Positions 9,059 through 25,006 of a stretch of DNA of 64,000 nucleotides are shown one piece after another. How positions within the stretch are numbered: position 1 is the first letter of the stretch; each line of letters opens with the position of its first letter. Location of the stretch: positions 35,950 to 99,949 of the IMG/VR virus record IMGVR_UViG_3300020735_000006, one strand, 5' to 3'. The stretch comes from a virus (Duplodnaviria > Heunggongvirae > Uroviricota > Caudoviricetes). The translations under genes were made by a program, and so were the position numbers. The notes under the pieces were generated by a model. The model searched no databases. It was not told the origin of the DNA and worked only from the letters and a program-made list of their open reading frames with translations.

Positions 9059-9132
9059 GCCCCTTTAGTTAAATGGTATAACACTTGATTTGTAATCATG
9101 GATTAGCAGTTCGATTCTGTTAAGGGGCACCA
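9059..9132 (+). tRNA. tRNA-Thr (anticodon UGU)
   Basis: Acceptor GCCCCTT/AAGGGGC; D stem GTTA/TAAC; anticodon loop TTTGTAA; T loop TTCGATT; encoded CCA. Confidence 0.8.
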
Positions 9133-9438: not shown

Positions 9439-9866
9439 AGCCAAAGTTAGCACAAGCCTATATGGACACAGCAAAGATATTTGCTGAACTTAGCCATGCT
9501 AAAAGACTCCATGTGGGTGCTATTATAGTCAAAGATGATCGCATTATATCAATTGGCTACAATGGTATGCCCACGGGTTGGGATAACAACTGCGAAGATG
9601 TTATCCAACATTCCGACGATACAACCACACTAAAAACTAAACCAGAGGTATTGCATGCCGAAACCAACGCCATTGCGAAACTGGCAAAATCAAACGAAAG
9701 TGGGCTTGATGCTAGTTTATTTGTCACTCACGCTCCTTGTATGGATTGTGCCAAACTTATATATCAAAGTGGCATTTCTACTGTTTACTATCGTAATAGT
9801 TATCGTGAGTCTACAGGACTTGATTTCCTTACCAAATCTGGAGTAGAAGTAATTAATTTAGGCTAA
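9435..9866 (+). CDS. cd: dCMP deaminase
   Basis: HAETNAI and PCMDCAKLI are the zinc-binding HAE / PCxxC motifs of the CMP/dCMP deaminase family. ATGA overlap with the previous ORF. Confidence 0.8.
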   Translation: MKPKLAQAYMDTAKIFAELSHAKRLHVGAIIVKDDRIISIGYNGMPTGWDNNCEDVIQHSDDTTTLKTKPEVLHAETNAIAKLAKSNESGLDASLFVTHAPCMDCAKLIYQSGISTVYYRNSYRESTGLDFLTKSGVEVINLG

Positions 9867-11201: not shown

Positions 11202-11750
11202 ATGAAGAAATTATTATTAGTATTAGCATTAGTAGCATCATCTGCATTTGCGTCAGACAACTGGCAAAATGGTGATGGTACTTTAAATTGGAAAAACGGT
11301 GACGGCAAATTATGCTGGCGTGATAATTCATGGACTCCGGCCACAGCCGCACCAGGATGCGATGGATGGATTGCCCCTAAGGTAAACACAGTGACTTCCA
11401 CTAAGGTCACACTACAAGCCGACACATTGTTTAACTTTGATAAGTCAGTATTAAAGCCAGAAGGTTTTGCTGTTTTGGATAACCTGGTCGGGCAAGTAAG
11501 TGGCGTTAAAGTAGAAGTAATCGTTGCAGTTGGTAATACTGACAGTATTGGTACCGATGCTTATAACCAAGCACTTGGTCAACGTCGGGCTAATGCGGTG
11601 AAGGTATACTTAGTTAGCGAAGGTTTACCTGCTGACAAGATCTACACCGAATCAAAAGGCAAATCTAATCCTGTAGCAAGTAACGCTACAGCAGAAGGTC
11701 GTAGCCAAAACCGCCGTGTTGATATTGAAGTAGTTGGTACACAAAAGTAA
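11202..11750 (+). CDS. OmpA-family protein (C-terminal peptidoglycan-binding OmpA domain)
   Basis: Signal peptide. N-terminal NWQNGDG/NWKNGDG repeat. C-terminal NFDKSVLKPEG…GNTDSIGTDAYNQALGQRRANAVKVYL…NRRVDIEV is an OmpA_C-like signature. Confidence 0.8.
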   Translation: MKKLLLVLALVASSAFASDNWQNGDGTLNWKNGDGKLCWRDNSWTPATAAPGCDGWIAPKVNTVTSTKVTLQADTLFNFDKSVLKPEGFAVLDNLVGQVSGVKVEVIVAVGNTDSIGTDAYNQALGQRRANAVKVYLVSEGLPADKIYTESKGKSNPVASNATAEGRSQNRRVDIEVVGTQK

Positions 11751-11756: not shown

Positions 11757-11786
11757 TAAAAGCCCACTTAAAGTGGGCTTTTTGTT
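11757..11786 (+). terminator. Rho-independent terminator
   Basis: AGCCCACT-TAA-AGTGGGCT stem-loop plus TTTT. Confidence 0.7.
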
Positions 11787-11846: not shown

Positions 11847-12008
11847 ATGTTTGAATCACTTGAAGTCCGTAAAGCGGCAAATGGTTTTATTTTAGTAGTA
11901 ACAACAGAAGAAGACGCTAAAGAGTTTGTTTATGATACTGAACGCAAATTGCTTCGTGTTATTAAAGCACACTTAGGCGAAAAGATTACAGCACAAGACG
12001 CTGATTAA
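11847..12008 (+). CDS. Small hypothetical protein (53 aa), not in the supplied ORF track
   Basis: ATG with RBS GGAG upstream and the promoter above. Translates MFESLEVRKAANGFILVVTTEEDAKEF… to TAA at 12006-12008. Confidence 0.4.
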   Translation: MFESLEVRKAANGFILVVTTEEDAKEFVYDTERKLLRVIKAHLGEKITAQDAD

Positions 12009-12808
12009 TATAATGCAAGCCCGGCATTCAATCCTTTAAGCGTTAAGTTTAATGATTGAATACGGGTTGTATCACCTGTAAAGTTGTTCGGACTTACAGC
12101 ATCAACAATAACCTCAGTAGTTAATCCGTGACTGTCTAAAAAGTTACGTGCTAATTCACTGAGCTTATACTTCTCGGGATATGCAATATTAATATCATCC
12201 CATTCAATTCCTTGAATTACCGCATCCATAACAGTAGGAATATCCTCTAGGTTAATGTAGTCAAAATAATGATCTTGAAAAATATGTATTGGCTTTTCTG
12301 CAAGATATAGTCTACGGAAGAAGCGTACAGGTTTTTCAGTATGATGGAATACACCAAAGAATCGTAAGTTAGTAAAGTTTTTGGTAGTCTTGCAAGTACG
12401 GGCCACAATGTTCTTAGCGTATGCGTAACTAGCCATGGGCATACGATCAAACAATAGTTCTTCTGATGCACAATCGATGTTCTGCGTAGTATCAAACTCG
12501 TTACCTGTACCAGCATTAATAAACTGACCAAACTTGTGTCTATTGCGCCATATATTCATGAACATGGCAAGGTTTTGTTGTTCTTCTTCGTGGTTTATGC
12601 CGTATATATTGTCTCTACCGGCTAGGGCAGTATGTATAACAATATCAATTTTATATGTGTCGAAAAAGCGACTAACACGATCTAAATTAGTCAATTCTAA
12701 TTCACTGTGACTAGGCGCTAATACGTTATAGTCTCGAGAGTAATATTCTTTAAGGTAGCTACCTACAAAGCCGTTGCCACCTGTGATGAAGATTGTCTGT
12801 TTACTCAT
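12005..12808 (-). CDS. NAD(P)-dependent sugar epimerase/reductase (short-chain dehydrogenase family)
   Basis: N-terminal IFITGGNGFVGSYL Rossmann GxxGxxG motif. Sits in the sugar cluster. Confidence 0.6.
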   Translation of the reverse strand: MSKQTIFITGGNGFVGSYLKEYYSRDYNVLAPSHSELELTNLDRVSRFFDTYKIDIVIHTALAGRDNIYGINHEEEQQNLAMFMNIWRNRHKFGQFINAGTGNEFDTTQNIDCASEELLFDRMPMASYAYAKNIVARTCKTTKNFTNLRFFGVFHHTEKPVRFFRRLYLAEKPIHIFQDHYFDYINLEDIPTVMDAVIQGIEWDDINIAYPEKYKLSELARNFLDSHGLTTEVIVDAVSPNNFTGDTTRIQSLNLTLKGLNAGLALY

Positions 12809-13470
12809 ATGCGATTTTTAGCCATTTCTTTTGCACGTGGAATACGTACATGATCATATAAGCCGGGCCAGTGTATAATCCAATCGCCTGGTTCCCATGT
12901 ACCGCGATTACCAAACATATCTTTACTAGTATCACAATAGTCGTATACAGCAGTTTCGTAACTGTTTAATTGATTCTGTGGTACAATCTTAACTATATCT
13001 AAGTTATCTTCGATGGTGTTAATCATAACCCATTGTTCAGTCCACGGATGATCTCGATAAAATGGTTCATCCTTGTGGCTTAAAATCATTTCAAAGTATG
13101 CACGGCCTTCTGGGCTATTACGTACTAGGAAGTTTCCTGCATTTAAGTTTAACCGGTCACTAGCAATAATAAAGTGATAATCATTATCAATGCGATCTTC
13201 AATTTTAATATTACTGTTAGTAATCATTGCATCGCACTCGCTAAACAATAGCCATTCAATTTCTGGATGCTTTTTAAAAATATCTAATACTACATACATC
13301 TTATTAAAGTTCATATAAGGACTATATGGTTCTGTCTTTAATGTAAATGAATCTTCCTTGCACGGGAAGAATAAGTATCCGTGTTTATCACAATACTCTT
13401 GCTTACTTGCATCTGTTAAGTCTGCAAACTCTTTAATGTTTTCGGTGCTCATACTAGCAACTGCGTACAT
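12805..13470 (-). CDS. Hypothetical protein, possible nucleotide-diphospho-sugar transferase
   Basis: 221 aa. Overlaps neighbouring genes by 4 nt. No firm motif. Confidence 0.35.
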   Translation of the reverse strand: MYAVASMSTENIKEFADLTDASKQEYCDKHGYLFFPCKEDSFTLKTEPYSPYMNFNKMYVVLDIFKKHPEIEWLLFSECDAMITNSNIKIEDRIDNDYHFIIASDRLNLNAGNFLVRNSPEGRAYFEMILSHKDEPFYRDHPWTEQWVMINTIEDNLDIVKIVPQNQLNSYETAVYDYCDTSKDMFGNRGTWEPGDWIIHWPGLYDHVRIPRAKEMAKNRI

Positions 13471-13471
13471 A

Positions 13472-14374
13472 TTAAATAATCTTTCTAAAGTATTCTATAG
13501 TATTTTGTAGACCTTGATTGAGATCTACTTGTGGTTCCCAACCAGTTGCTTGTTTAATTAAAGATAAGTTTGGAACAGGCTGTGTAGGTTCAACTACATT
13601 AGTACCAGTAAATGTAACAGAACTTGCAGAATTTGTCAATGATACTATACGGGTAGCTAACTCTTTAATAGTAAGTGTTTCTGGGTTACCCACATCAACT
13701 GGAGTTGTAAAATCATCCTCTGTGGCCATTAACCCTATTAGGGCATCTACTGTATCTGTAGCATAGCAAAAGTTTCTATACTGTTCGCCGTTACCATTAA
13801 TTGATATAGGTTCGTTACGTAAAGCCTGTACAATAAAGTTTACAATAGCACGGCCATCATTGACTTGTAAGTTTGGCCCATAGGTATTAAACAGTCTGGC
13901 TACCTTAGTGCGTACACCGTGTTGGGCATTATAAGAATAGAATAGAGTTTCTACTGCTTGCTTGCCACCTAAATAACAATGTCTAGGATTGAATACATTC
14001 TTGTTTGGCTCAAAAGTAACCGAACCATATACTTCTGCGGTACTAGTTTGTAGTATACGAGCATTGTATCGTTTTGCCAACTCTAATAAGTTTATTGCAC
14101 CCAATATGTTACTGCGAATAGTGTCTGTAGGTTCAAGTTGATAACGTTTTGGACTTGCAGGACTTGCTAAGTTATAAATTTCGTCTACTTCTAAATCCAA
14201 TGGTTCTTGTATATTATGGGTGATGAGTTTAAGTTGTTCACTTTTGTGTACATTACTTTGACTACCTGTGGAAAAGTTATCAAGACAATATACCATATTA
14301 CCTTGCGATAATAGTTTTTGAATTAAATGACTACCTAGGAATCCAGCACCACCAGTTATTAGAATTTTTTTCAT
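13472..14374 (-). CDS. UDP-glucuronate decarboxylase (UXS)-like NAD-dependent dehydratase
   Basis: KILITGGAGFLGSHLIQKLL…VYCLDNFSTGSQSNV closely resembles the UXS / dTDP-glucose dehydratase N-terminus. Confidence 0.65.
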   Translation of the reverse strand: MKKILITGGAGFLGSHLIQKLLSQGNMVYCLDNFSTGSQSNVHKSEQLKLITHNIQEPLDLEVDEIYNLASPASPKRYQLEPTDTIRSNILGAINLLELAKRYNARILQTSTAEVYGSVTFEPNKNVFNPRHCYLGGKQAVETLFYSYNAQHGVRTKVARLFNTYGPNLQVNDGRAIVNFIVQALRNEPISINGNGEQYRNFCYATDTVDALIGLMATEDDFTTPVDVGNPETLTIKELATRIVSLTNSASSVTFTGTNVVEPTQPVPNLSLIKQATGWEPQVDLNQGLQNTIEYFRKII

Positions 14375-14423
14375 TGATATATAAAATTTGACAGCTAGGT
14401 ATTTATGTGCTTAAATACGATAT

Positions 14424-15287
14424 ATGAAAATTTATGACTGTTTCACATTCTATAACGAGCTAGACCTACTTGAACTAAGATTAACAGAATTATACGACGT
14501 TGTCGACCACTTTGTTTTAGTAGAAGCTGACACTACATATACTAGTAAACCAAAGCCATTTTATTACGAAGATAATCAAGCTCGTTACGCTAAATGGGCT
14601 GACAAGATTATCCATATTAAAGTCGAAGATATGCCACATGATCTAGATGCATGGGTCAATGATATATACCAACGCAACCAAATTGCTCGTGGCATTGCAG
14701 ACGCAGATGACAATGACTTAATTATGGTTTGTGACTTAGATGAGATTGTACGCAGAGAAGCAGTAGAGTGTATGCGTAACAGTTCACAAGACTTATTTGC
14801 TATACGTATGGCCTTGTTTAACTTTAAGTTTAATTATATGCGTACAGCACCAGATCCATATCAAATTTGGGGCATGGCCGGACGTCGGCATTTGTTTAAT
14901 GATATCCAGCCCGATCCATTTAGACAACTACGTTTTCAGTTTATGGCAGCACCGTATAAGTTTAGTAACGACGGTTGCGAAGTTATCGAACACGGTGGCT
15001 GGCATTTTGGTTACATGGGCGATAATGAGTGGTTAAAGAATAAAGCTCAAAGTTTTGCACACACAGAAAGCGATACTCCAGAGTTCTTAGCACACATTGA
15101 CATTGATAAGTCCATAGCCGAACGTAAAGAGTGGAACCGTGCTAGTCCAAATGAGTATAAGATTGTCGAAATCAATGATTATTTCCCTCGGTCCTTGTTA
15201 GCTAACTTGGACAAGTATCAAAAGAACATACTTGACAATGCCGAAGCAAACATATATAATCTATTACCACCGTATCCATATCAATGA
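14424..15287 (+). CDS. Glycosyltransferase, GT17-like
   Basis: N-terminus MKIYDCFTFYNELDLLELRL is characteristic of bacterial GT17-family proteins. Confidence 0.45.
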   Translation: MKIYDCFTFYNELDLLELRLTELYDVVDHFVLVEADTTYTSKPKPFYYEDNQARYAKWADKIIHIKVEDMPHDLDAWVNDIYQRNQIARGIADADDNDLIMVCDLDEIVRREAVECMRNSSQDLFAIRMALFNFKFNYMRTAPDPYQIWGMAGRRHLFNDIQPDPFRQLRFQFMAAPYKFSNDGCEVIEHGGWHFGYMGDNEWLKNKAQSFAHTESDTPEFLAHIDIDKSIAERKEWNRASPNEYKIVEINDYFPRSLLANLDKYQKNILDNAEANIYNLLPPYPYQ

Positions 15288-16006
15288 ACATAATTATTCC
15301 AATGGCAGGGCGAGGTAGTCGCTTTGCTGAAAAACAAATCCTGACGCCCAAGCCATTACTTGATGTAAACGGACGTACTATGATTGAACGTGCCATTGAA
15401 AGTTTAGATTTGTATGGTACTTGGCACTTTGTTATACGTGATGATGAACATCGTGAACGTGTACAAGCAATGATTGAAACAATCAAACCTGGTAGTAAGT
15501 TTATTGCAATTGATTATGTTACCGAAGGTCCTGCTAGTAGCGGATTGTTATTTAAAGATCAGATTAATAACGATGAAGAACTTGTTATTGCTAACTGTGA
15601 TCAAATCATGGAATGGACTAGCAGTAGATTCCTGGACTATGTCCGCCACTATGATGGTGCAGTAGTTACATACCATGCACATACAGATAAAAACAGTTAT
15701 GCTCGAGTAAACAAAGAAGGCCTTGTACAAGAAATCCGTGAGAAGCAAGTAATAAGCAACATCAGTCTTAACGGTATTCACTATTGGCGAGAAGGCCGCA
15801 TGTTTGTTGATAGTGCAGAAGCAATGATAGCCACCAATGATCGTGCACCTAATGGAGAGTTCTACATTGGACCTAGTTATAATCATATGATCGCAACAGG
15901 ATTAACTGTGGGCATTTACCACATACCTAACCAGTTTCATCATCCAGTTGGTGTTCCCGACGACTTAGACAAATTTATAAGATATGAAAACAGCAAAACT
16001 TTCTGA
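15284..16006 (+). CDS. Sugar-phosphate nucleotidyltransferase
   Basis: IIPMAGRGSRF matches the G-x-G-[ST]-R signature of the NTP_transferase family. 4-nt overlap with the upstream gene. Confidence 0.7.
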   Translation: MNIIIPMAGRGSRFAEKQILTPKPLLDVNGRTMIERAIESLDLYGTWHFVIRDDEHRERVQAMIETIKPGSKFIAIDYVTEGPASSGLLFKDQINNDEELVIANCDQIMEWTSSRFLDYVRHYDGAVVTYHAHTDKNSYARVNKEGLVQEIREKQVISNISLNGIHYWREGRMFVDSAEAMIATNDRAPNGEFYIGPSYNHMIATGLTVGIYHIPNQFHHPVGVPDDLDKFIRYENSKTF

Positions 16007-16310
16007 CATGACACGTGGATGGTTCATCGGCGACTTTGAACCTAGTGTAATGCGTACTCCTTTGTTTGAAGTGGGCGTACTTACACACTTAAAGGGCGAA
16101 GTTTGGCCCGCACACTATCACAAACATGCTACAGAATACAATGTATTATTATCAGGAAGTATGCGTATTGCCGGAGAAGTTATTAGCGTAGGCGATATCT
16201 TTTGGTTTGAGCCCGAGGATGTTGCTGATCCAGAATTTTTAGAAGATTGTAAAGTCTTGTGCGTTAAACGCCCGAGTATAATTGGAGACAAGTATGAAGT
16301 TTTACCGTAA
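15984..16310 (+). CDS. Cupin-domain protein (possible NDP-sugar isomerase/epimerase)
   Basis: HYHKHATEYNVLLSG fits cupin motif 1, G(x)5HxH(x)3-4E(x)6G. Confidence 0.5.
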   Translation: MKTAKLSDMTRGWFIGDFEPSVMRTPLFEVGVLTHLKGEVWPAHYHKHATEYNVLLSGSMRIAGEVISVGDIFWFEPEDVADPEFLEDCKVLCVKRPSIIGDKYEVLP

Positions 16311-17487
16311 CCGTAGTGAAATAGATCCGAACAAATATCTTGTTGCTACTTATGCAATGACGAGTAGCACAAGTCTTGACGATGCTGCTTGGAACTTAGC
16401 TATCGGACAAAGTGTAGGTAATCCTAATGTACGCAACGAGTGGGAAACAGATGAACTGTTTGAAAATCACAGTTGTATTATACTTGCAGACAAAGCAGAG
16501 TTAGCACAAACAAAAGCAGGTACAGTTGAAATTGCGTTCCCTGTGGCAAACACAGATTGGGAATCAGATGGTATTAATCATTTAATTTGTCAGTTAATGG
16601 GTGGACATGTAGACATTGATTGTGTAACAGGATGTAGACTAATTAAACTAGAACTTCCGGAAACTGTAACTAAGCACTTCCTAGGTCCTAAGTTCGGTCT
16701 TACAGGAATTCGAGAATTTACAGGTCAATACAACAAGCCCCTGTTTGGTAGCATTGTTAAACCTAAAATTGGCATTACACCAGAAGTAATGTTAGAGATG
16801 GTTAAACAAATGGTTGACGGTGGTGCCGACTTTATCAAAGAAGATGAGATTATGTCAAACCCTGCGTGTGCTCCATTAGAACGCAGAGTAGAATTAGTTG
16901 CCAACTACCTAGCTAAACAAAGCCGTAAGGTTGTGTTTTGCCATACTATTAACTGTGATCCACATGTATTAGTTGAACGTGTTAAGCGTGTAGCAGAACT
17001 AGGTGGTAATGGAGTACATACAAACGTATTTTCAGGATTAGGTACTTACAACTCTATTCGTAAATTAGACTTGCCACTGTTCTTACACTTCCAGAAGTCT
17101 GGCGACAAACTAATGACTGATGCCAAACATCGTTTTAGTATTGCTTGGCCTGTTGTATGCCAACTTGCTACCTTAATGGGTGTTGACACAATCCAAACAG
17201 GTATGATGGGCGGATATAGTAATGACGATCCTGCAGAGTTAGCAGAAAGCATTAAGGTGTTACGTGAAGGTAATACATTGCCTGTATTAAGCTGTGGATT
17301 CCATCCTGGACTGGTAGAAAAGATTACAGCATTAGCTGGCAATGATTATATGGCCAATGTAGGCGGAGCAGTACACGGGCATCCAGGCGGTACAGTTGCA
17401 GGTGCACGTGCTATGCGTCAAGCAATTGACAAGACTTATGGTCCAGAATATGATGAAGCAATCGCAAAATGGGGATTAGTAAAATGA
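16282..17487 (+). CDS. RuBisCO large-subunit-like protein (form IV RLP)
   Basis: VKPKIGIT aligns with KPKLGLS. GGADFIKEDE aligns with GGLDFTKDDE. LPVLSCGFH…GGAVHGHPGG aligns with LPVASGGIH…GGGTLGHPWG. The HIHRA motif is replaced by HFQKS. Confidence 0.75.
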   Translation: METSMKFYRNRSEIDPNKYLVATYAMTSSTSLDDAAWNLAIGQSVGNPNVRNEWETDELFENHSCIILADKAELAQTKAGTVEIAFPVANTDWESDGINHLICQLMGGHVDIDCVTGCRLIKLELPETVTKHFLGPKFGLTGIREFTGQYNKPLFGSIVKPKIGITPEVMLEMVKQMVDGGADFIKEDEIMSNPACAPLERRVELVANYLAKQSRKVVFCHTINCDPHVLVERVKRVAELGGNGVHTNVFSGLGTYNSIRKLDLPLFLHFQKSGDKLMTDAKHRFSIAWPVVCQLATLMGVDTIQTGMMGGYSNDDPAELAESIKVLREGNTLPVLSCGFHPGLVEKITALAGNDYMANVGGAVHGHPGGTVAGARAMRQAIDKTYGPEYDEAIAKWGLVK

Positions 17488-18077
17488 GATGGGAACAAGA
17501 TTTAGTAACAGATATTAGAACAGGCGATGCGGAATTAGATGACCAAGACGGTCCGTTTAGTTTAGAAGGACGTAACTGGAGTGATATCAATGAACTTGCA
17601 GGTGTTGCACTTGCTAAAGAAAAGTTTTTAACTATTTGTGCCAATACAAAATCGATTCTTGAGATCGGAGTGAATCAATTTGGATTTACTAAGACTTGGC
17701 TAGATAATAAAAATAAAGATACAACCTATGTTGGTATCGATGTTGGCGATCGTAGTCATTTAAACAATCCCGATAATCTAGTTTGGACTATTCACGACAC
17801 TAGCAGTAACTATGATAGCAACGTTGCTAAGTTTAATAGCTTTGGCATTACACAATTTGATTTTATCTACATTGATGGATGGCATAGTATTAATCAAGTA
17901 CTAGCAGACTGGGAATATACTAATTTATTAGCACCTGGTGGATTAGTAGGATTCCACGATACTAACTATCATCCTGGTCCTAAGTTATTTACGCTGGCAC
18001 TAGATAGAACTAATTGGGAAGTAGAAGATATTAGCCCTAAAAATGATTGGGGTGTAGTGTTCGCAAGGAAACTATGA
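17469..18077 (+). CDS. Class I SAM-dependent methyltransferase (Methyltransf_24/CmcI-like O-methyltransferase)
   Basis: ILEIGVNQFG is motif I. DFIYIDGWHS resembles the DxxFIDGDH block of this family. Confidence 0.5.
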   Translation: MGISKMRWEQDLVTDIRTGDAELDDQDGPFSLEGRNWSDINELAGVALAKEKFLTICANTKSILEIGVNQFGFTKTWLDNKNKDTTYVGIDVGDRSHLNNPDNLVWTIHDTSSNYDSNVAKFNSFGITQFDFIYIDGWHSINQVLADWEYTNLLAPGGLVGFHDTNYHPGPKLFTLALDRTNWEVEDISPKNDWGVVFARKL

Positions 18078-18766
18078 AGATAGCATTATGCCTAAGTGGC
18101 GGACCGCGTTTTGAATATCGTGGGCTATTTCGATTAGTTGATGCACTTAAAGGTTACAATGAAGCTGACTTTTTTATTCGTACGTGGAAAAGTGAACAGT
18201 ACGGAGTAACTGCTGAACAGTTTGAAAACTACTTACGTGAAAATAGTCATGGTACATTAGATAAGTGTACATTCAGAGTAACACAAGTATTAGATGATAT
18301 TCCTGCGTATGCACCACCACCGAAGCGTCCACTCAATATAGCCGACTGGGCACCTAACTTTTTAGTCATGTGGTGGGGTATATTACAAAGTCATAAACTA
18401 ATGACAGACTATGTTGAACAAACAGGTACAGAGTATGATATGGTATTCCGTATGCGTACAGATATGGTACCACGCGGCGAAGTTGACTTATGTGACTATG
18501 CAGAAAAAGTAAAAACTAAAATGATCAATGCTGAGAATTTTGCTGATAACTTTTTATTCGGTAGTCCTGAGATGTACGCACGATTCCTAAGGTACTGGAA
18601 TTACCTAGATCATTTATCAACTACAGGTGAGTTTATACATCCGGAAGAAAGTTTAGAAAAATACTTTAAAGAAGTAGGTATAGACTACGAGTGCTTGCCG
18701 TTTATAGTAGAACCACAGTGGAACAAAGGCGAATACCGCGGACGCTGGAGAATGGACCATCAATGA
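18074..18766 (+). CDS. Hypothetical protein
   Basis: Start moved to the ATG at 18074: RBS AAGGA upstream and an ATGA overlap with the previous gene. The track ORF starts at 18047. Confidence 0.45.
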   Translation: MKIALCLSGGPRFEYRGLFRLVDALKGYNEADFFIRTWKSEQYGVTAEQFENYLRENSHGTLDKCTFRVTQVLDDIPAYAPPPKRPLNIADWAPNFLVMWWGILQSHKLMTDYVEQTGTEYDMVFRMRTDMVPRGEVDLCDYAEKVKTKMINAENFADNFLFGSPEMYARFLRYWNYLDHLSTTGEFIHPEESLEKYFKEVGIDYECLPFIVEPQWNKGEYRGRWRMDHQ

Positions 18767-19230
18767 TATACATAGCACACAGGGGGTTGTTTAATGGCCC
18801 AGACGATGGAATAGAAAATGACCCAGAGCAGATTAAGTTTGCTCTTAGTAAAGGATATGATTGCGAAGTAGACGTATGGTACAAAGCCGAAGACGAGTGG
18901 TTTCTAGGGCACGATGAACCTACGTATAATGTTAGCTACGATTTTATTGCACAAGGCGGATTATGGTTACATGCTAAGAATTTAGCCGCCTTGTATTACT
19001 TAACTGGCACGCCGCTTAATTACTTTTGGCACGAATCAGATTCACGTACATTAACAAGTCATCAATATATCTGGACCTATCCTGGGCACAAGTTGTCTAA
19101 GCATAGCATTATGGTTATGCCAGAAACAGTTGATCCCGAATTACTATCAACTAACGATGCTAACTGTTATGGAATATGTAGTGATTATATTGAAAAAATC
19201 ATTGACATACGGTCCGGCAAAGTTTTATAA
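18691..19230 (+). CDS. Glycerophosphodiester phosphodiesterase (GDPD)-like protein
   Basis: HRGLFNG…ENDPEQIKFALSKGYDCEVDVW…LGHDEP follows the HR-x-ENT-x-E-x-D-x-HD pattern of GDPD enzymes. Confidence 0.45.
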   Translation: MLAVYSRTTVEQRRIPRTLENGPSMIYIAHRGLFNGPDDGIENDPEQIKFALSKGYDCEVDVWYKAEDEWFLGHDEPTYNVSYDFIAQGGLWLHAKNLAALYYLTGTPLNYFWHESDSRTLTSHQYIWTYPGHKLSKHSIMVMPETVDPELLSTNDANCYGICSDYIEKIIDIRSGKVL

Positions 19231-19283
19231 TAAGCAATATCATAGTAAAATAAATACTAGCATCAATTAATAATGGAAGAAAC

Positions 19284-20324
19284 ATGTCAAAAAATGTACT
19301 AATAACAGGTGGTGCTGGATTTATCGCGCATCACGTCATCGATAAAATGCTTAAAGAAACAGACTACAATATTGTATGTTTAGATCGTTTAGACATTAGT
19401 GGTAACTTAAATCGTTTATATGATATGCTACAGGATCACGACCCTAAGATGGTTGCAGAGCGTATGCGTATTGTGTTCCACGATCTTAAAGCAGAATTAA
19501 ATGAAATGATTATCAAGGACATTGGCCCCATTGATATTATTTTACACTTAGCCGCAGGTAGTCACGTAGATCGCAGTATTGAATATCCACTGGAGTTCCT
19601 ACAAGATAACGTAGTGGGCACAGTTAACATGCTCGACTATGCACGTAAGCATTTGCCTAATTTGGAACGTTTTGTTTACTTCTCCACAGATGAAATCTTT
19701 GGTGTTGCTCCCCCAGGCGTAAGTTACAAAGAATATGATCGTTACAACTCAACTAATCCATATTCTGCTAGTAAAGCCGCAGGCGAAGAGTTCTGTGTTG
19801 CGTATGAAAACACTTACAAAATGCCTATTATTGTCACCCATACAATGAACGTATTTGGCGAACGTCAACATCCAGAGAAGTTTATTCCTATGTGTATTCA
19901 ACGTGCTCGTGATGGTGAGAAAGTATATATTCACGCTAACGCAGATTGTACAGAAGCAGGTACACGTATGTATATCCACGCACGTGATGTAGCAGATGGC
20001 TTGATGTTTATTCTAAATACATTACCTGCAGACTACAAACACACAGGCGATTATGGTTGGGCACATTGTCCTAAGTTTAACTTAGTAGGCACAGAAGAAG
20101 TTGATAACTTAACTTTAGCTAAAATGATTGCTGCTGCCCAGGGTAAAGAGTTAAATTACGAAATGGTTGACTTCCATGGATCACGTCCGGGGCATGATTT
20201 ACGTTATGCACTAGATGGTAGCCTGCTTAAAGAGCTAGGGTGGGAGCCGAAGATTAAACTTAGTGAACGTATTAAAGATATGACATTGTGGACATTAGAC
20301 AACAAACGTTGGTTGAGCAAATAA
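19284..20324 (+). CDS. dTDP-glucose 4,6-dehydratase-like NAD-dependent dehydratase
   Basis: VLITGGAGFIAHHV…IVCLDRLDISGN. Catalytic YSASKAAGE (YxxxK). Confidence 0.7.
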   Translation: MSKNVLITGGAGFIAHHVIDKMLKETDYNIVCLDRLDISGNLNRLYDMLQDHDPKMVAERMRIVFHDLKAELNEMIIKDIGPIDIILHLAAGSHVDRSIEYPLEFLQDNVVGTVNMLDYARKHLPNLERFVYFSTDEIFGVAPPGVSYKEYDRYNSTNPYSASKAAGEEFCVAYENTYKMPIIVTHTMNVFGERQHPEKFIPMCIQRARDGEKVYIHANADCTEAGTRMYIHARDVADGLMFILNTLPADYKHTGDYGWAHCPKFNLVGTEEVDNLTLAKMIAAAQGKELNYEMVDFHGSRPGHDLRYALDGSLLKELGWEPKIKLSERIKDMTLWTLDNKRWLSK

Positions 20325-20325
20325 T

Positions 20326-21042
20326 ATGACTAGACATGCATTTATCGTTACCTCTGCTATTAATAGTAAGTTTGGTGTGTTTACCCCAACACAACGATTA
20401 CAACAAACAATTGAAACTATTACTAGCATTAAAGCTAAAGTTCCTGATGCAATTATTGTTGTTATGGAATGTTGTGGCGAACCGATTAAAAAACTACAAG
20501 AAGATATTCTACGTGCCCATTGTCACGTATTTGTAGACTACAGTCGGGATGCCGAGGTACAAGCATTGTACGACAATGATAACTGGGACGTTGTAAAAAA
20601 TGGAACAGAGATTATGTGCTTTGGTCGTGCGTTAGCAGTATTGGCACACGAAGGATTGTTTACAAATGTTGATCGTATACATAAAATGTCTGGACGTTAT
20701 ATCCTAAATGATATGTTTGATCCTGCTACATACGATCAAACAGATGTCATTGATAAGATTGTTATTGGCCCTAAGTGTACAAGCCAATTCCCTCCAGAAG
20801 TAACACAAGTACCATTCCAGTATATGGCTCGTTTGTGGTCATGGCCAACTAGTCGAGTAGACGAAGTAGTTAAGGTATACAGCGATTCGTTTATTTTCTT
20901 TGCTGAACGTTTAAGCCAAGGCGGATATGTGGATATTGAGCATGTATTAGCTAAGTTCTTAAATCCAGCAGTAGTACATGAAATTCAAAATCTTGGTGTC
21001 GAAGGACAAATTGCACCTAACGGAACCCCAATTAAAAACTAA
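20326..21042 (+). CDS. Hypothetical protein
   Basis: 238-aa ORF, translationally coupled within the operon. Confidence 0.45.
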   Translation: MTRHAFIVTSAINSKFGVFTPTQRLQQTIETITSIKAKVPDAIIVVMECCGEPIKKLQEDILRAHCHVFVDYSRDAEVQALYDNDNWDVVKNGTEIMCFGRALAVLAHEGLFTNVDRIHKMSGRYILNDMFDPATYDQTDVIDKIVIGPKCTSQFPPEVTQVPFQYMARLWSWPTSRVDEVVKVYSDSFIFFAERLSQGGYVDIEHVLAKFLNPAVVHEIQNLGVEGQIAPNGTPIKN

Positions 21043-22265
21043 TGGAAGATTGCAAACAAATCACTGAATGTCTTGCCTGTGGCGGTCACGATCTGGTATT
21101 AACTTTAGATCTTAAAGATCAGCCATTGGCAAATAATTTTCAAAAGCATGGTGGAGTTAAAGATACCGACTTGTGGTTCCCTTTAGCTATTAACCGTTGT
21201 ACTAATTGTAATCACTTACAACTAACACACGCAGTTAATCCAGAAATTATTTATACACATTATCTTTATGTAAGTGGCACTAGCCAGACTAACAGAGATT
21301 TTATGAAATGGTTTGCAGGATTTGCCAAAGAACAGTTCGATCGTCCTGTGCTTAGTGTATTAGATATCGGGTGTAATGATGGTACACAATTAAACTTCTT
21401 AAAAGAACAACAATTTTTAACATACGGTGTAGATCCAGCAGAAAACTTATACCCTATTAGCAGTAAAGATCATAATATTGTTTGTGGATTCTGGGATGCG
21501 GAAAGTGCCAGTGGCCTAGGGCGTGACTTTGATGCAATCATAGCACAAAACAGTTTTGCACATAATCCTGATCCATTGCCATGGTTAAAGTTAGCCAAAG
21601 CATACTTAAAGAATGATGGAAAGATCTTTATTCAAACAAGTCAAGCAGATATGATTGTTAATGGTGAATTTGATACAATCTATCATGAGCACATTAGTTT
21701 CTACAATGCGTACAGTATGAAGTTGCTTGCCGAACGTGCCGGATTATATTTAATTGATGTTGTTAAACCCACTATCCACGGTACTAGTTATATCTTTATC
21801 TTAGCTAAACAACCAGCTAACGAATATCGTGTGGCAAATATTCTTGCGGTAGAGGAAGCTCTCGGATTACAGAACCCCGAAACTTACACTAAGTGGGCTG
21901 CAGGCGTTCGGGATCTAATTACAAAACTTAAAGATCAACTCGAATTATATCGCCATAATGGGTATGCTATTGTTGGGTATGGCGCTGCTGCTAAAGGAAT
22001 GACCTTACTTAATGCAAGTGATATTCACTTAGACGCAGTTGTAGATGACAATCCGTTAAAACAAGGATTGTTCTGCCCGGGCACAGCTATTCCCGTAGTC
22101 AGCCCAGATTATATTAAAGGTTTCACAGACCGAGACAGCATTGTATTTGTTCCGCTTGCTTGGAATTTTTACGATGAGATTGTAAAAAATATTCGCAAGG
22201 TACGTGATAACAAAAACGATATGTTTATTAAGTATTTTCCTGAAATAACACACGAATTTTTTTAA
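21042..22265 (+). CDS. NDP-hexose C-methyltransferase (TylCIII-like)
   Basis: N-terminal zinc-ribbon CLACGG…CTNCNHLQL followed by a class I methyltransferase core (VLDIGCNDG). Architecture typical of sugar C-3 methyltransferases. Confidence 0.6.
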   Translation: MEDCKQITECLACGGHDLVLTLDLKDQPLANNFQKHGGVKDTDLWFPLAINRCTNCNHLQLTHAVNPEIIYTHYLYVSGTSQTNRDFMKWFAGFAKEQFDRPVLSVLDIGCNDGTQLNFLKEQQFLTYGVDPAENLYPISSKDHNIVCGFWDAESASGLGRDFDAIIAQNSFAHNPDPLPWLKLAKAYLKNDGKIFIQTSQADMIVNGEFDTIYHEHISFYNAYSMKLLAERAGLYLIDVVKPTIHGTSYIFILAKQPANEYRVANILAVEEALGLQNPETYTKWAAGVRDLITKLKDQLELYRHNGYAIVGYGAAAKGMTLLNASDIHLDAVVDDNPLKQGLFCPGTAIPVVSPDYIKGFTDRDSIVFVPLAWNFYDEIVKNIRKVRDNKNDMFIKYFPEITHEFF

Positions 22266-22633
22266 TGAGTACCTTCCATTTTCCTATAATTGAATTAGTT
22301 GACAGATACACTATTGCTCGTGTAAAATACGAAAAGACCAATGGTGCTAATAGTGCTGAATTATCCTTTTATCAACTTGAAATCAATAAACTCGATATTA
22401 ATTTAATTAAAGATGATCTGCTGGCACTAGAAGATATACATCGCCGTATTTGGGCAATGGAAGATGATTTTAAAAAGTGTCGAATTGATGGTGCACCACT
22501 TAGCGATATCGGGCAACGTGCTTTAGACATACGAGATTTAAACAATCATAGAGTAGCATACAAAAATTCTATAGCAGAGAAGTTAAATGATCCTGTTAGA
22601 GAAATTAAACAAGACCACACAAGTGAAAATTGA
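22265..22633 (+). CDS. Hypothetical protein
   Basis: 122-aa ORF, operon-coupled. Confidence 0.45.
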   Translation: MSTFHFPIIELVDRYTIARVKYEKTNGANSAELSFYQLEINKLDINLIKDDLLALEDIHRRIWAMEDDFKKCRIDGAPLSDIGQRALDIRDLNNHRVAYKNSIAEKLNDPVREIKQDHTSEN

Positions 22634-23516
22634 AACACCCGTAACCATACTAGTTAAACGCAGAGCCGCCCTGGGCGATGTAGTAATGAGTACCGCAGTT
22701 GTGCGAGAGTTGTACAAGAAGTACGACGGTAAATGCTCTATTACTGTAGAAACAGAATTCCCACTTATATATAAAAACAATCCTTACATTGTTGATTTAC
22801 GCAATTGGGGAGAAGTTAATACTAGTGACTTTGATGTTGTTGTTAACTTAGATGACGCATACGAATTAAATCCAGATAATCATTTTATTGATAGTATGCT
22901 ATTCCGTGCATTTGGTGATAGCATAGGACGGTTAAATCGTGCGCCAGATTTACACGCAGACGATGCCGACAAAAGTATCGTAGACGCAGACATAAAAGAT
23001 ATAGGCCCATTCTTTGCGGTTCATATGCGTAACTGGCATTGGGCATTAAAGAATATCGGTATTGAAATTTGGTGTGATATTTTTGCTAAGGTGTTTGAAC
23101 AGAACGCAGATACTAAAGTTATGGTAATTGGTGGCCCAACAGATTATACGTTAGATCATCCATTGTTTATTGATGCACGTGCTAAGTACACACCACAACA
23201 GTTAGCATACTTGCTCAATTCTGCAGAATGTTTTGTTGGTATAGATTCTGGACCATTTAACATTGCTGCCGCAAGCGATACACATATTATTGGATTGTTA
23301 ACACACAACCCACCTAAAAATATCATGCCCATCCGTAAGTTTGATGCAGGATGGCATACTACAGCAATACAAGCTGACATTGATTGTGTTGGCTGTAACG
23401 TAAATCAAGCTCGTCCCGTAAGAGGAATTAATTGTATACACGGTGATTTCCGTTGTAACAAGTTATGGGACACACAAAAAATTGCCAACGCTATATTAAC
23501 ACAAATAGGAAAATAA
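22587..23516 (+). CDS. Glycosyltransferase family 9 (heptosyltransferase-like)
   Basis: ILVKRRAALGDVVMSTAVVREL matches the GT9 N-terminal motif ILVIRxxxLGDVVxxTPxxRAL. The start may lie downstream; the track ORF overlaps the previous gene by 47 nt. Confidence 0.55.
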   Translation: MILLEKLNKTTQVKIETPVTILVKRRAALGDVVMSTAVVRELYKKYDGKCSITVETEFPLIYKNNPYIVDLRNWGEVNTSDFDVVVNLDDAYELNPDNHFIDSMLFRAFGDSIGRLNRAPDLHADDADKSIVDADIKDIGPFFAVHMRNWHWALKNIGIEIWCDIFAKVFEQNADTKVMVIGGPTDYTLDHPLFIDARAKYTPQQLAYLLNSAECFVGIDSGPFNIAAASDTHIIGLLTHNPPKNIMPIRKFDAGWHTTAIQADIDCVGCNVNQARPVRGINCIHGDFRCNKLWDTQKIANAILTQIGK

Positions 23517-24245
23517 ATGCCAAACATTGTAATTACAGATCAAGTATATCAAGACCATCCGCAAGTTCAAGTTGTTAAAGATTGTTTTGAATTAGCTCAA
23601 CAAGGTATTAGTGCGATTCCGCCTTATGCCTTAACAATCCCCGGAATGAGTGGAATTGTATACCGTAGATTTATTAACAACTATGTACGCACTCTAATAG
23701 CGCCAAAGTACTTAGAAGTTGGTGTATGGACAGGTAGTACATTGTGTGCGGCTATCGGCGGCATTGATAATGTACGTGCAGTGGCCGTAGATAACTATTC
23801 AGAAAGCTATCCGCACTACTCTACAAGTCCAGAAGCAGACTGCCGCCATAATGTGGCTACTGTTAAGATTGACACAGCCAATCTTGAGTTATTATTAAAT
23901 CAAGCATTTGAAACATTTGAACCTGCTCCATATGGTCCATTTAACGTTTACATGTATGATGGTTACCACGATGAAGAAAGTCAATTCCAAGGCATTGACA
24001 AAGTTGCTCCTTGCTTAGAAGAGATTAGTTTAATTGTAGTTGATGATTGGAACGATAACGAATACTTCCCAACTGAATACAAAGGTGTTACATATGGTAG
24101 CCGCGAAAAAGCTGGAACATATCGTGCATTTGATCAAGTTGGTCTAGAGCTACTATACAAGATTGAAGTTGAAACAGGTGAAAACCCAATGTTCCCAAGT
24201 GATTGGCACAACGGATACGGAATCTTCTTAGTTAAAAAGATCTAA
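23517..24245 (+). CDS. Putative class I methyltransferase (O-methyltransferase family 3-like)
   Basis: YLEVGVWTGS motif-I-like and VYMYDGYHDEES (FIDxDH-like) blocks. Confidence 0.4.
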   Translation: MPNIVITDQVYQDHPQVQVVKDCFELAQQGISAIPPYALTIPGMSGIVYRRFINNYVRTLIAPKYLEVGVWTGSTLCAAIGGIDNVRAVAVDNYSESYPHYSTSPEADCRHNVATVKIDTANLELLLNQAFETFEPAPYGPFNVYMYDGYHDEESQFQGIDKVAPCLEEISLIVVDDWNDNEYFPTEYKGVTYGSREKAGTYRAFDQVGLELLYKIEVETGENPMFPSDWHNGYGIFLVKKI

Positions 24246-25006
24246 TGACAACATTTTTACATTCTGGAACTGCCGGTGATACTGTATATAGTTTAGCCGC
24301 AGTTAAAAAAATGGGTGGTGGCGAGTTTCAGATTGGTATTCGCAACCTAGAGCGTATTTTACCTACATACGGCTATCGTGCAGAGGATTGTGATCCAGCA
24401 CACCGAGGTCGTTACACAGAACGAGACTACGAGCTATTAGCACCATTGATTGAGCGTCAAACGTATATAACTAAGGTTACTCCTTGGCACGATGGTGATA
24501 ATAGGCCGGATGTAAACTTAGATCAATATCGTGCAGTACTGTATCGTACATTCGAAGGCAATATTGTTGAAAGCTATTTTAAAACATTCAACTTACCTTT
24601 TATGATGCAAGATTACGATACACCTTGGTTAGAAGCAGACGCAATTACTGAAGCCGCTATTATTGTAAACTCAACACCACGCTATAGAGATCCAGAAGCA
24701 TTTGGTACTTGGTTACAAATGTGTGCAGATGCCGAACTAGACAAAAATGGATTGTTTGTGGGCACTATTGCAGAATACGATGCGTTTGTTACCGCTACTA
24801 AATGTAATATTAAATATCGCCCGGTTAAGGACTTTTTGGAACTAGCCGGACTTATCGAAGGTGCAGACTTATTTTTGGGTAATCAAAGTATGGCACTTAG
24901 TATTGCTATGGGTTTGGGCAAAGCTAGTGTAGTTGAATTGCATAAAATCAAACCGATGCAGTATAGAGAATGTTTCTTCCCTAGAACTAACATTACCTAT
25001 TTCTAA
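24245..25006 (+). CDS. Putative GT9-like glycosyltransferase
   Basis: C-terminal LAGLIEGADLFLGNQSMALSIAMGLGK resembles the GT9 C-terminal GNDSGPMHLAAALG region. Confidence 0.4.
   Translation: MTTFLHSGTAGDTVYSLAAVKKMGGGEFQIGIRNLERILPTYGYRAEDCDPAHRGRYTERDYELLAPLIERQTYITKVTPWHDGDNRPDVNLDQYRAVLYRTFEGNIVESYFKTFNLPFMMQDYDTPWLEADAITEAAIIVNSTPRYRDPEAFGTWLQMCADAELDKNGLFVGTIAEYDAFVTATKCNIKYRPVKDFLELAGLIEGADLFLGNQSMALSIAMGLGKASVVELHKIKPMQYRECFFPRTNITYF

What the first reader, a model, noticed from the sequence alone, without database searches (positions are those of the whole stretch)
16282..17487. RuBisCO-like protein (form IV) encoded inside a phage sugar-nucleotide operon
The 401-aa ORF carries the diagnostic RuBisCO large-chain blocks. 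KPKIGIT aligns with KPKLGLS, GGADFIKEDE with GGLDFTKDDE, and LPVLSCGFH…GGAVHGHPGG with LPVASGGIH…GGGTLGHPWG. The HIHRA catalytic block is replaced by HFQKS, the signature of non-carboxylating RLPs. It is translationally coupled to a sugar nucleotidyltransferase and a cupin upstream, and to an O-methyltransferase and dehydratases downstream. I am not aware of RLPs described in phages or in NDP-sugar pathways. Known RLPs act on sugar phosphates, so it could generate an unusual sugar precursor.
Basis: partly seen in the sequence, partly recalled or inferred. Interest (0 to 1): 0.85.

Follow-up and report, generated by a model that had tools for sequence, protein, structure and literature searches.

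The report
Phage RuBisCO-like protein in glycan cassette
A large phage carries a non-CO2-fixing relative of RuBisCO that is always packaged with a sugar-activating enzyme, here and in many phages and bacteria including SAR11, which suggests an unstudied role for the RuBisCO family in building surface sugars.

Summary
Window 16294-17487 (+) encodes a 397-aa RuBisCO large-subunit homologue (the ATG with a GGAGA ribosome site is the likely start, not the TTG at 16282). Pfam RuBisCO_large scores 3.6e-36, and the model matches form III and RLP structures at TM 0.80-0.84. It keeps K175, K177, K201, D203, E204, S379, G381 and G403/404. It has lost E60, T65, W66, N123, H294, R295, H298, H327 and K334, so it cannot carboxylate. 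The window is a T4-like large phage.

- Phage RLPs were already reported (Jaffe et al. 2019, "IV-like" clade, function unknown).
- The dehydratase, C-methyltransferase and glycosyltransferases are variable neighbours. The conserved partners are a nucleotidyltransferase (28/29 distinct loci), a small metal cupin (23/29), a miniature GDPD-like phosphodiesterase (21/29) and a Methyltransf_24 (19/29).

The same cassette sits in glycan islands of SAR11, Verrucomicrobia, Patescibacteria and other cellular genomes. RLP::nucleotidyltransferase and GDPD::RLP fusions exist.

Best reading: a Mg-dependent enolising enzyme that feeds an unusual phospho-sugar into a nucleotide-activated donor for glycan synthesis. 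Substrate and reaction remain unknown.

The parts
16294..17487 (+). RuBisCO-like protein (397 aa) of the 'IV-like' phage/CPR/SAR11 clade. It keeps the Mg-carbamate centre and lacks the carboxylase residues.
15284..16006 (+). Sugar-phosphate nucleotidyltransferase (NTP_transf_3, 240 aa). It is the near-invariant partner of the RLP.
   Evidence: Pfam 1.1e-10. NCBIfam weak hits to GlmU-N, MurU, AglF and RmlA. PDB 4evw E=1.5e-15. Adjacent in 28/29 distinct phage loci. Fused to an RLP in P0122.
15984..16310 (+). Small metal-binding cupin (108 aa) with invariant H35, H44, H46 and E51. It overlaps both neighbouring genes.
   Evidence: Alignment A2. PDB profile hits to cupins, 3.5e-6 to 1e-4. Present in 23/29 loci.
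17484..18077 (+). Methyltransf_24-type SAM methyltransferase (197 aa). Its start overlaps the RLP stop (ATGA).
   Evidence: Pfam 1.2e-6. Gene call. Present in 19/29 loci.
18074..18766 (+). Unknown 230-aa protein, weakly DUF7796-like. An accessory gene, present in 11/29 loci.
18763..19230 (+). Miniature glycerophosphodiester-phosphodiesterase-like protein (155 aa) with the motifs HRG, EN, ExD, GHD, HAKN, FWH and GICSDY.
   Evidence: Alignment A1. PDB profile hit to GDPD 7e0v, E=2e-4. AF2 pLDDT 95.7. Foldseek top hits are GDPD 1v8e/1vd6, prob 1.00. Present in 21/29 loci. Fused to an RLP in P0151.
15232..15260 (+). Perfect 12/12 sigma-70 consensus match (TTGACA-17-TATAAT) just upstream of the nucleotidyltransferase start.
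   Evidence: This is a consensus match only, and the total count in the region is not above shuffles.
19202..19231 (+). Second perfect 12/12 sigma-70 consensus match, at the end of the cassette and before the dehydratase gene.
12005..15287 (.). Variable glycan genes upstream: SDR (12005-12808 -), GT34-like (12805-13470 -), SDR epimerase/dehydratase (13472-14374 -) and GT17-like (14424-15287 +).
   Evidence: These are not conserved with the RLP across loci.
19284..25006 (+). Variable glycan genes downstream: a dTDP-glucose 4,6-dehydratase-like SDR, an unknown, a TylC3-type sugar C-methyltransferase, a DUF6165-like gene, a GT9-like gene, a second Methyltransf_24 and an unknown.
   Evidence: Shared only with the close relative L002.

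Best explanation
The gene encodes a functional, non-carboxylating RuBisCO-like protein of the deep 'IV-like' clade. It keeps the carbamylatable lysine and the Mg ligands (K182, D184, E185), the KPK lysines (K156, K158) and the glycine loops that hold the C1 phosphate in RuBisCO. It therefore most likely binds a phosphorylated keto-sugar and carries out Mg-dependent proton abstraction (enolisation leading to isomerisation, epimerisation or tautomerisation), not CO2 fixation.

It works inside a mobile, translationally coupled cassette: nucleotidyltransferase - cupin - RLP - (methyltransferase) - (unknown) - mini GDPD-like phosphodiesterase. Its obligate partner is the nucleotidyltransferase. The RLP product would be converted into a nucleotide-activated donor, or less likely a nucleotide-linked keto-sugar would be remodelled by the RLP. 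The variable glycosyltransferases around the cassette would then install the sugar on a glycan of the infected cell envelope or of the virion.

Shown: homology, residue pattern, purifying selection, cassette conservation in phages and cells, and gene fusions. Inferred: reaction type, order of steps, substrate, and destination of the product.
For: - Family and fold: Pfam 3.6e-36; PDB hits 1e-39 to 1e-34 to form III and MtnW-type RLPs; AF2 model TM 0.80-0.84 over the full length.
- Residues: K175, K177, K201, D203, E204, S379, G381, G403 and G404 are kept. E60G, T65N, W66P, N123G, H294Q, R295K, H298D, H327Q and K334Y are changed. The pattern is shared by the whole clade.
- Selection: dN/dS is 0.04-0.06, and 176 columns are invariant among 22 phage homologues.
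- Cassette in phages: among 29 distinct phage loci with at least 2.5 kb on both sides, NT is present in 28, cupin in 23, GDPD-like in 21 and MT24 in 19, all on the same strand within 4 kb. The short gene overlaps are conserved.
- Cassette in cells: at least the nucleotidyltransferase is adjacent to the RLP in 15 of 18 GTDB cellular loci. These include a complete Pelagibacter chromosome and a Verrucomicrobiae chromosome, flanked by GT9, WavE and CMP-sugar cytidylyltransferase genes.
- Fusions: P0122 is RLP::NTP_transferase and P0151 is GDPD-like::RLP.
- Phage loci elsewhere carry other glycosyltransferases (WavE, GT2, GT1-like) and FkbM methyltransferases next to the cassette.
- Clade: monophyletic in 39/40 NJ bootstraps against 88 other RuBisCO/RLP cluster representatives.
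Against: - No substrate, product or activity is known for any clade member.
- No kinase, mutase or isomerase that would deliver a defined ketose phosphate is conserved in the cassette.
- The nucleotidyltransferase resembles sugar-1-phosphate enzymes, whereas known RLP substrates are ketose-1-phosphates that are not anomeric phosphates. The chemical hand-over is therefore unexplained.
- The role of a phosphodiesterase in a precursor pathway is unclear.
- The residues that bind the distal phosphate vary within the clade (K/R/S at 268, H/Q at 301), so even the number of phosphates on the substrate is uncertain.
- The RLP model is only of moderate confidence (pLDDT 77.8), with low confidence at 267-272, exactly the HFQKS loop.
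Confidence: 0.55

Rival explanations
1. The cassette makes a nucleotide-activated (for example CDP-linked) polyol- or keto-polyol-phosphate head group, which is attached to glycans through a phosphodiester as in teichoic-acid-like substituents. In this reading the RLP isomerises a ketose phosphate, the nucleotidyltransferase acts on a primary (non-anomeric) phosphate like TarI/IspD, and the GDPD-like enzyme handles the resulting phosphodiester. This is a sub-variant of the main explanation with different chemistry.
For: The NT matches the MobA-like NTP_transf_3 family and has a weak IspD N-terminal hit. A GDPD-family phosphodiesterase is conserved in 21/29 loci and is fused to an RLP in P0151. 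Known precedent (my knowledge): CDP-ribitol and CDP-6-glucitol pathways activate ketose or alditol primary phosphates.
Against: The best NT similarities are to sugar-1-phosphate enzymes: GlmU-N, MurU, AglF and RmlA, with PF00483 in the P0122 fusion. No reductase is conserved in the cassette. GDPD enzymes are hydrolases, not known transferases.
Confidence: 0.15
2. Sulfur/SAM by-product salvage, as in known RLP pathways. The RLP plus cupin would act like the R. rubrum MTA-isoprenoid shunt (RLP isomerase plus cupin methylsulfurylase), or like Bacillus MtnW-MtnX-MtnD (enolase, phosphatase, cupin dioxygenase). The GDPD-like protein would serve as the phosphoesterase.
For: An RLP adjacent to a small metal cupin is reminiscent of both pathways (my knowledge of Erb 2012, Warlick 2012 and Ashida 2003). 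MtnW models score about as well as any other: 162 bits, PDB 4nas 6.8e-37. Several SAM methyltransferases lie nearby.
Against: Scores are far below the equivalog cut-offs: 162 against 409, and 132 against 513. The N123 position, a catalytic Lys in MtnW by my knowledge, is Gly104 here. No mtnA, mtnB, mtnK, mtnP or mtnX genes occur in about 70 loci. The cupin is missing from about 20% of phage loci and from the SAR11 loci, whereas the nucleotidyltransferase is nearly universal and sometimes fused. The flanks are glycosyltransferases.
Confidence: 0.08
3. The nucleotide-sugar made by the cassette is used to glycosylate phage DNA (hypermodification) rather than a surface glycan.
For: The phage is T4-like (UvsW, gp41-like helicase, primase, dCMP deaminase nearby), and T4-like phages are known to glycosylate DNA (my knowledge).
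Against: The same cassette lies in cellular LPS-type islands with GT9, WavE and CTP_transf_3. The neighbouring GT families (GT17, GT34, GT9, WavE) are glycan or LPS types. No hydroxymethylase was seen next to it.
Confidence: 0.07
4. It is a true CO2-fixing RuBisCO (or an AMP-pathway form III enzyme) acting as an auxiliary carbon-fixation gene.
For: The best NCBIfam and PDB hits by score are form III RuBisCO.
Against: Nine of the canonical catalytic or RuBP-binding residues are replaced, including K334, H294, H327, E60 and N123. The score is 178 bits against a form III cut-off of 497. No PRK, DeoA or e2b2 genes are nearby.
Confidence: 0.01

Closest known systems
'IV-like' phage RuBisCO-like proteins of Jaffe, Castelle, Dupont & Banfield 2019 (Mol Biol Evol 36:435; PMC6389311)
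   Same: These are RLP homologues on IMG/VR and groundwater phage contigs, some Myoviridae and one of ~200 kb. They are divergent from all RLP clades, retain only part of the key residues, and group with Beckwithbacteria sequences. Here the protein has 53 IMG/VR relatives on contigs up to 327 kb, and forms one clade with a Beckwithbacteria MAG homologue, L064.
   Different: That paper left the function open. Its main text does not mention a nucleotidyltransferase, cupin, phosphodiesterase or glycosyltransferase context. Three points are additions from this analysis: the conserved cassette, the gene fusions, and the presence in SAR11, Verrucomicrobia, Planctomycetes and Bacteroidota chromosomes. 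Their sequences were not compared directly.
DK-MTP-1-P enolase MtnW/YkrW (form IV-YkrW; PDB 2oem, 2zvi, 4nas)
   Same: Same fold, a similar length (~400 aa), the retained carbamate-Mg centre and K175, and enolisation chemistry on a 1-phospho-2-ketose. Sequence E-values are 1e-31 to 1e-37.
   Different: Only 25-28% identity. Scores are below the equivalog cut-offs. Gly replaces the Lys at the N123 position. There is no methionine-salvage gene context, and the partner is a nucleotidyltransferase.
R. rubrum RLP plus cupin of the MTA-isoprenoid shunt (form IV-DeepYkr; my knowledge of Erb et al. 2012 and Warlick et al. 2012)
   Same: An RLP encoded next to a small metal cupin that acts on the RLP's product.
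   Different: The cupin is dispensable in many loci, and there is no MTA-processing gene context.
OiaX/OiaC 3-oxo-isoapionate-4-phosphate decarboxylase and related apiose-catabolic RLPs (Carter et al. 2018)
   Same: These are the nearest RLPs in cultured-organism plasmids, at ~30% identity. NCBIfam OiaX scores 157 bits. They act on a branched keto-sugar acid phosphate.
   Different: Far below the cut-off of 700 bits. Those pathways are catabolic, with DUF1537 kinases and dehydrogenases. Here the context is anabolic and glycan-related.
Archaeal form III RuBisCO (PDB 8dht, 1geh, 3a12, 2d69)
   Same: The highest sequence and structure similarity of any solved protein: E=1e-39, TM 0.80-0.84.
   Different: The carboxylase residues are lost and there are no AMP-pathway partners.

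Membership tests
RuBisCO large-subunit superfamily (PF00016) | Significant match to the catalytic-domain profile | tested here: met
   E=3.6e-36, 125 bits against a cut-off of 30.
RuBisCO large-subunit superfamily (PF00016) | Two-domain fold: an N-terminal alpha/beta domain plus a C-terminal (beta/alpha)8 barrel | tested here: met
   AF2 model (pLDDT 77.8) aligns over ~410-440 columns to form III and RLP structures, TM 0.80-0.84, prob 1.00.
RuBisCO large-subunit superfamily (PF00016) | Activation and metal site K201-D203-E204, plus K175 | tested here: met
   K182, D184, E185 and K156 are invariant in 22 phage and 27 further clade sequences.
Bona fide carboxylating RuBisCO (forms I-III) | Complete set of catalytic and RuBP-binding residues (E60, T65, W66, N123, H294, R295, H298, H327, K334) | tested here: not met
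   G38, N43, P44, G104, Q267, K268, D271, Q301 and Y308. NCBIfam form III scores 178 against a cut-off of 497.
Form IV RuBisCO-like proteins (sensu lato) | A RuBisCO homologue lacking residues essential for carboxylation | tested here: met
'IV-like' phage/Beckwithbacteria clade (Jaffe et al. 2019) | Encoded on phage contigs, and groups with Beckwithbacteria homologues apart from other RLPs | tested here: met
   53 IMG/VR loci. The window carries T4-like and PHROG phage genes. The clade includes the Beckwithbacteria MAG locus L064 and is monophyletic in 39/40 bootstraps. Direct comparison with the published sequences was not possible.
IV-YkrW DK-MTP-1-P enolase (MtnW) | Score above the equivalog cut-off, and a methionine-salvage gene neighbourhood | tested here: not met
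   162 against 409 and 132 against 513 bits. No mtn genes in the loci.
OiaX 3-oxo-isoapionate-4-P decarboxylase | Score above the equivalog cut-off | tested here: not met
   157 against 700 bits. About 30% identity to annotated OiaX.
IV-GOS clade of Tabita et al. 2007 (recalled from memory) | Clusters with the ocean-metagenome RLPs that define that clade | not testable with these tools
   The paper is not held and no reference sequences were available. SAR11 homologues at 56-59% identity make this plausible.
Glycerophosphodiester phosphodiesterase family (for the 155-aa partner) | Catalytic His/Arg, Glu/Asn, Glu-x-Asp and His-Asp motifs on a PLC-like barrel | tested here: met
   The motifs are invariant in 26 and 42 sequences. 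Profile hit to 7e0v at 2e-4. Foldseek top hits are GDPDs. The protein is about 90 residues shorter than solved GDPDs (TMt 0.39), so it is a reduced variant.

The most novel reading that the evidence does not exclude
This RLP clade catalyses a reaction not yet known for the RuBisCO superfamily. That reaction would supply a previously undescribed nucleotide-activated sugar or sugar-like donor. It would be the first anabolic, glycan-building role for a RuBisCO homologue, carried on a cassette exchanged between jumbo phages and abundant aquatic bacteria such as SAR11.
Probability: 0.45. Interest if true: 0.8.

Novelty: new variant of a known kind. Interest (0 to 1): 0.62.

Why it matters
RuBisCO-like proteins are a classic test case for how an enzyme scaffold acquires new chemistry. 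Every characterised RLP works in catabolism or salvage: methionine salvage, the MTA-isoprenoid shunt, and apiose breakdown.

A deep RLP clade that is locked to, and sometimes fused with, a nucleotidyltransferase points to an unexplored biosynthetic use of the scaffold. The clade lies in glycan islands of phages and of very abundant bacteria. It probably also points to an undescribed sugar in their cell-surface glycans.

Surface glycans are phage receptors. A phage-borne copy could therefore remodel the infected cell's surface (superinfection exclusion) or decorate the virion.

The cassette is small, four to six genes, so it is directly testable by heterologous expression.

Tried and rejected
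- INPHARED phages (tblastn), PHROGs and BFVD viral structures hold no relative of the RLP, so reference phages gave no context.
- PLSDB plasmids gave only OiaX-type RLPs at ~30% identity.
- Literature searches linking RLPs with nucleotidyltransferase/cupin, glycosyltransferases, SAR11 or huge phages found nothing beyond Jaffe 2019 and the GOS paper. Tabita 2007 is not held.
- The first NJ tree was invalid: distance saturation gave NaN values, and a fused clade member was mislabelled as an outgroup. It was redone.
- The MAFFT mapping of H294 to H265 was rejected in favour of the ungapped HMMER mapping to Q267.
As a result the cupin and the nucleotidyltransferase were not modelled.
- PDB, NCBIfam and Pfam searches gave nothing for the 230-aa unknown, for Methyltransf_24, and for recurrent unknown neighbours in other loci.
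- The idea that the dTDP-glucose 4,6-dehydratase and C-methyltransferase pathway is the RLP's pathway was rejected, because those genes accompany the RLP only in this phage and L002.
Full report
**1. The observation**

The + strand ORF 16282..17487 exists. The TTG at 16282 is probably not the start. An ATG at 16294 lies six bases after GGAGA and gives 397 aa. This is the length of essentially all 120 listed homologues and of the gene called on three independent source contigs.

Homology to RuBisCO is unambiguous:
- Pfam RuBisCO_large scores E=3.6e-36, 125 bits against a gathering score of 30.
- phmmer against PDB gives 1.2e-39 for a form III RuBisCO (8dht), 6.8e-37 for an MtnW-type RLP (4nas), and 99 chains below 1e-5.
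- An AlphaFold model (pLDDT 77.8) superposes over its full length on form III RuBisCOs and on RLPs of several clades, with TM 0.80-0.84 at 22-28% identity.

The 'different TIM-barrel family' refutation therefore fails.

**2. Active site**

It indexes all 21 canonical positions correctly, which is an internal check.

Combining the MAFFT alignment with the HMMER alignments to 8dht and 1geh gives this pattern:
- Retained: K175 (K156), K177 (K158), K201 (K182), D203 (D184), E204 (E185), S379 (S333), G381 (G335), G403/G404 (G357/G358).

The protein can therefore still form the carbamate-Mg centre and probably still holds a phosphate in the P1 site. It lacks the residues needed for CO2 addition, hydration and cleavage.

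No curated subfamily model accepts it:

| Model | Score (bits) | Cut-off (bits) |
|---|---|---|
| Form III | 178 | 497 |
| MtnW (first model) | 162 | 409 |
| MtnW (second model) | 132 | 513 |
| OiaX | 157 | 700 |

It is an RLP in the broad form IV sense, but it belongs to none of the characterised RLP enzymes.

**3. Is it a phage?**

The 64-kb window is almost entirely + strand, densely packed and ~38% GC, with two tRNAs. It carries the following phage-type genes:
- a UvsW-like helicase, a DnaB/gp41-like helicase, a primase, a clamp-loader-like AAA protein and NrdA/NrdB;
- an exonuclease (phrog_298, 6e-55) and a DNA-polymerase fragment family (phrog_11778, 9e-60);
- several phage-only PHROGs of unknown function, such as phrog_1250 (1.5e-83) and phrog_11058 (7.7e-51).

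Fifty-three IMG/VR contigs, up to 327 kb, encode 60-84% identical RLPs. The identical protein lies on a 296-kb contig. The phage assignment is sound.

**4. Prior art**

Jaffe et al. 2019 (PMC6389311) reported about 80 non-redundant 'IV-like' RLPs on phage contigs, some Myoviridae and one a curated ~200-kb genome. These grouped with Beckwithbacteria sequences as an outgroup to other RLPs, with 'possible functionality unclear'.

That paper's main text does not mention sugar, nucleotidyl, cupin or glycosyl context for these genes. No paper in the searchable library combines RuBisCO-like, nucleotidyltransferase and cupin.

The clade is absent from INPHARED, PHROGs, BFVD and PLSDB, where the best hits are OiaX at ~30% identity.

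**5. What really travels with the RLP**

tblastn of 21 window proteins against the 53 phage loci, plus de novo clustering of all neighbouring ORFs, gave a clear result. The dTDP-glucose 4,6-dehydratase, the C-methyltransferase and GT17/GT34/GT9 accompany the RLP only in this phage and in one close relative (L002).

The conserved set is different. Among 29 distinct loci with at least 2.5 kb on both sides, the following lie within 4 kb on the same strand:

| Partner | Loci (of 29) |
|---|---|
| Nucleotidyltransferase | 28 |
| ~107-aa cupin | 23 |
| Methyltransf_24 | 19 |
| DUF7796-like protein | 11 |

The short gene overlaps are themselves conserved.

The ~150-aa protein has the invariant motifs HRG, EN, ExD, GHD, HAKN, FWH and GICxDY. 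Its profile hits a glycerophosphodiester phosphodiesterase (7e0v, 2e-4). Its model (pLDDT 95.7) finds GDPDs as top structural matches (1v8e/1vd6, prob 1.00). At 155 aa it is a reduced version of that barrel.

The cupin has an invariant H35/H44/H46/E51 metal motif and matches small Cupin_2 proteins.

Other loci surround the cassette with different glycan genes: WavE, GT2-like, GT1-like and FkbM methyltransferase. The cassette is thus a constant core inside variable glycan islands.

**6. Not phage-specific**

A scan of one genome per GTDB species found 18 loci at 38-60% identity. They include:
- a complete Candidatus Pelagibacter chromosome (NZ_CP159823.1);
- SAR11 single-cell genomes;
- a complete Verrucomicrobiae chromosome;
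- Beckwithbacteria, Saccharibacteria, Planctomycetes, Nanoarchaeia and Bacteroidota.

Fifteen of the 18 have the nucleotidyltransferase adjacent, and most also have the cupin and/or the GDPD-like gene in the same order. The flanks include GT9 heptosyltransferase-like, WavE and CMP-sugar cytidylyltransferase genes.

All of these RLPs share the clade signature: GQSxGNP, G104, KPK, KxDE, (H/F)xQ(K/R), Y308, SCG. In an NJ tree of 124 sequences, they and the phage proteins form one clade in 39 of 40 bootstraps. The other 89 sequences were the 88 nearest 50%-identity cluster representatives of other RuBisCO/RLP proteins, plus spinach.

Some short 'cellular' contigs may be mis-binned phage. The two chromosomes are not.

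**7. Fusions**

Two fused proteins turned up among the cluster representatives:
- P0122 (667 aa, 51% identical in its RLP part) is an RLP fused to a C-terminal NTP_transferase that is 37% identical to the window's nucleotidyltransferase.
- P0151 is a GDPD-like::RLP fusion or read-through.

Together with the adjacency statistics, this is strong genomic evidence that the RLP and the nucleotidyltransferase act in one pathway.

**8. Selection and expression**

dN/dS against two phage homologues is 0.04-0.06, with dS saturated for more distant ones. The gene is maintained.

Two perfect 12/12 sigma-70 consensus matches bracket the cassette, at 15232-15260 and 19202-19231. These are suggestive only, since the region's total count is not above shuffles.

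**9. Mechanism**

*Shown:* a conserved, selected RLP with an intact Mg-carbamate site, obligately paired with a nucleotidyltransferase in glycan islands.

*Inferred:* the RLP enolises a phospho-keto-sugar. All characterised RLPs and RuBisCO begin with Mg-assisted proton abstraction next to a carbonyl (established knowledge). The product would be passed to the nucleotidyltransferase to form an activated donor. The cupin (a metal-dependent isomerase or lyase type), the methyltransferase and the phosphodiesterase would tailor the sugar in many lineages. Local glycosyltransferases would consume the donor.

*One chemically economical possibility (speculation):* an MtnA-like interconversion between a ketose-1-phosphate and an aldose-1-phosphate, which would directly create a nucleotidyltransferase substrate.

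*Unexplained:*
- the role of a phosphodiesterase;
- the absence of any conserved kinase or mutase;
- the variation of the distal-phosphate residues (K/R/S268, H/Q301).

The rivals I considered are a polyol-phosphate head group, sulfur salvage in the R. rubrum or Bacillus style, DNA glycosylation and true carboxylation. They are weighed in the structured fields. The salvage and carboxylase readings are poorly supported.

**10. Verdict**

The gene is a member of an already reported but functionally unknown phage/CPR RLP clade.

What is new here:
- the conserved nucleotidyltransferase-cupin-RLP-GDPD cassette;
- the gene fusions;
- the spread of the cassette into SAR11 and other bacteria.

Together these make a glycan-precursor role the leading, testable hypothesis.

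Noticed in passing
window 9972-11141 and 11202-11750 (+), terminator 11758-11782: The phage encodes a Gram-negative porin (Porin_4, 6e-38) followed by an OmpA-domain protein. The pair is closed by a strong bidirectional terminator-like hairpin. Outer-membrane proteins on a phage are unusual and hint at the host type.
   Followed up: no
window 25101-25397 and 25409-27031 (+): A phage-encoded GroES (Cpn10) and GroEL (Cpn60) pair. The GroEL DNA is 72% identical to groL in two 'Acinetobacter phage MD-2021a' records.
   Followed up: no
window 2219-3316, 3323-4504, 4533-5618 (+); 5611-6498 (-): Two radical-SAM-like ORFs and a PAPS-reductase-like ORF in a row, then a TctC (Bug-family) solute-binding protein on the opposite strand.
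   Followed up: no
window 8691-8783 and 9059-9132 (+): A 93-nt tRNA-Ser with the unusual anticodon ACT, and a tRNA-Thr(TGT). Nearby are an Rpb6/omega-like ORF (8397-8627) and a dCMP deaminase (9435-9866).
   Followed up: no
window 15232-15260 and 19202-19231 (+): Two perfect TTGACA/TATAAT consensus matches bracket exactly the six-gene run from the nucleotidyltransferase to the GDPD-like gene. This suggests a separate host-sigma70 transcription unit. The total promoter-like count is not above chance.
   Followed up: partly
window 19284-22265 (+): A dTDP-glucose 4,6-dehydratase-like SDR plus a TylC3-type sugar C-methyltransferase (Methyltransf_13/14). These imply a second pathway, for a branched deoxysugar, in the same island, independent of the RLP cassette.
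   Followed up: partly
proteins P0190, P0155, P0169, P0158 (distant relatives): Other fusions in the superfamily: TIR domain::RuBisCO (P0190); IF-2B/e2b2 isomerase::RuBisCO (P0155, P0169); and an unknown 327-aa N-terminal region fused to a clade RLP (P0158). The TIR fusion may be defence-related.
   Followed up: no
loci L013, L014, L016-L018, L020, L023, L024, L026, L028 and SAR11 loci L055-L058: A sub-type of the cassette lacks the cupin and has the order GDPD-like, nucleotidyltransferase, RLP. In the phage versions it is followed by an unannotatable 259-aa protein.
   Followed up: partly
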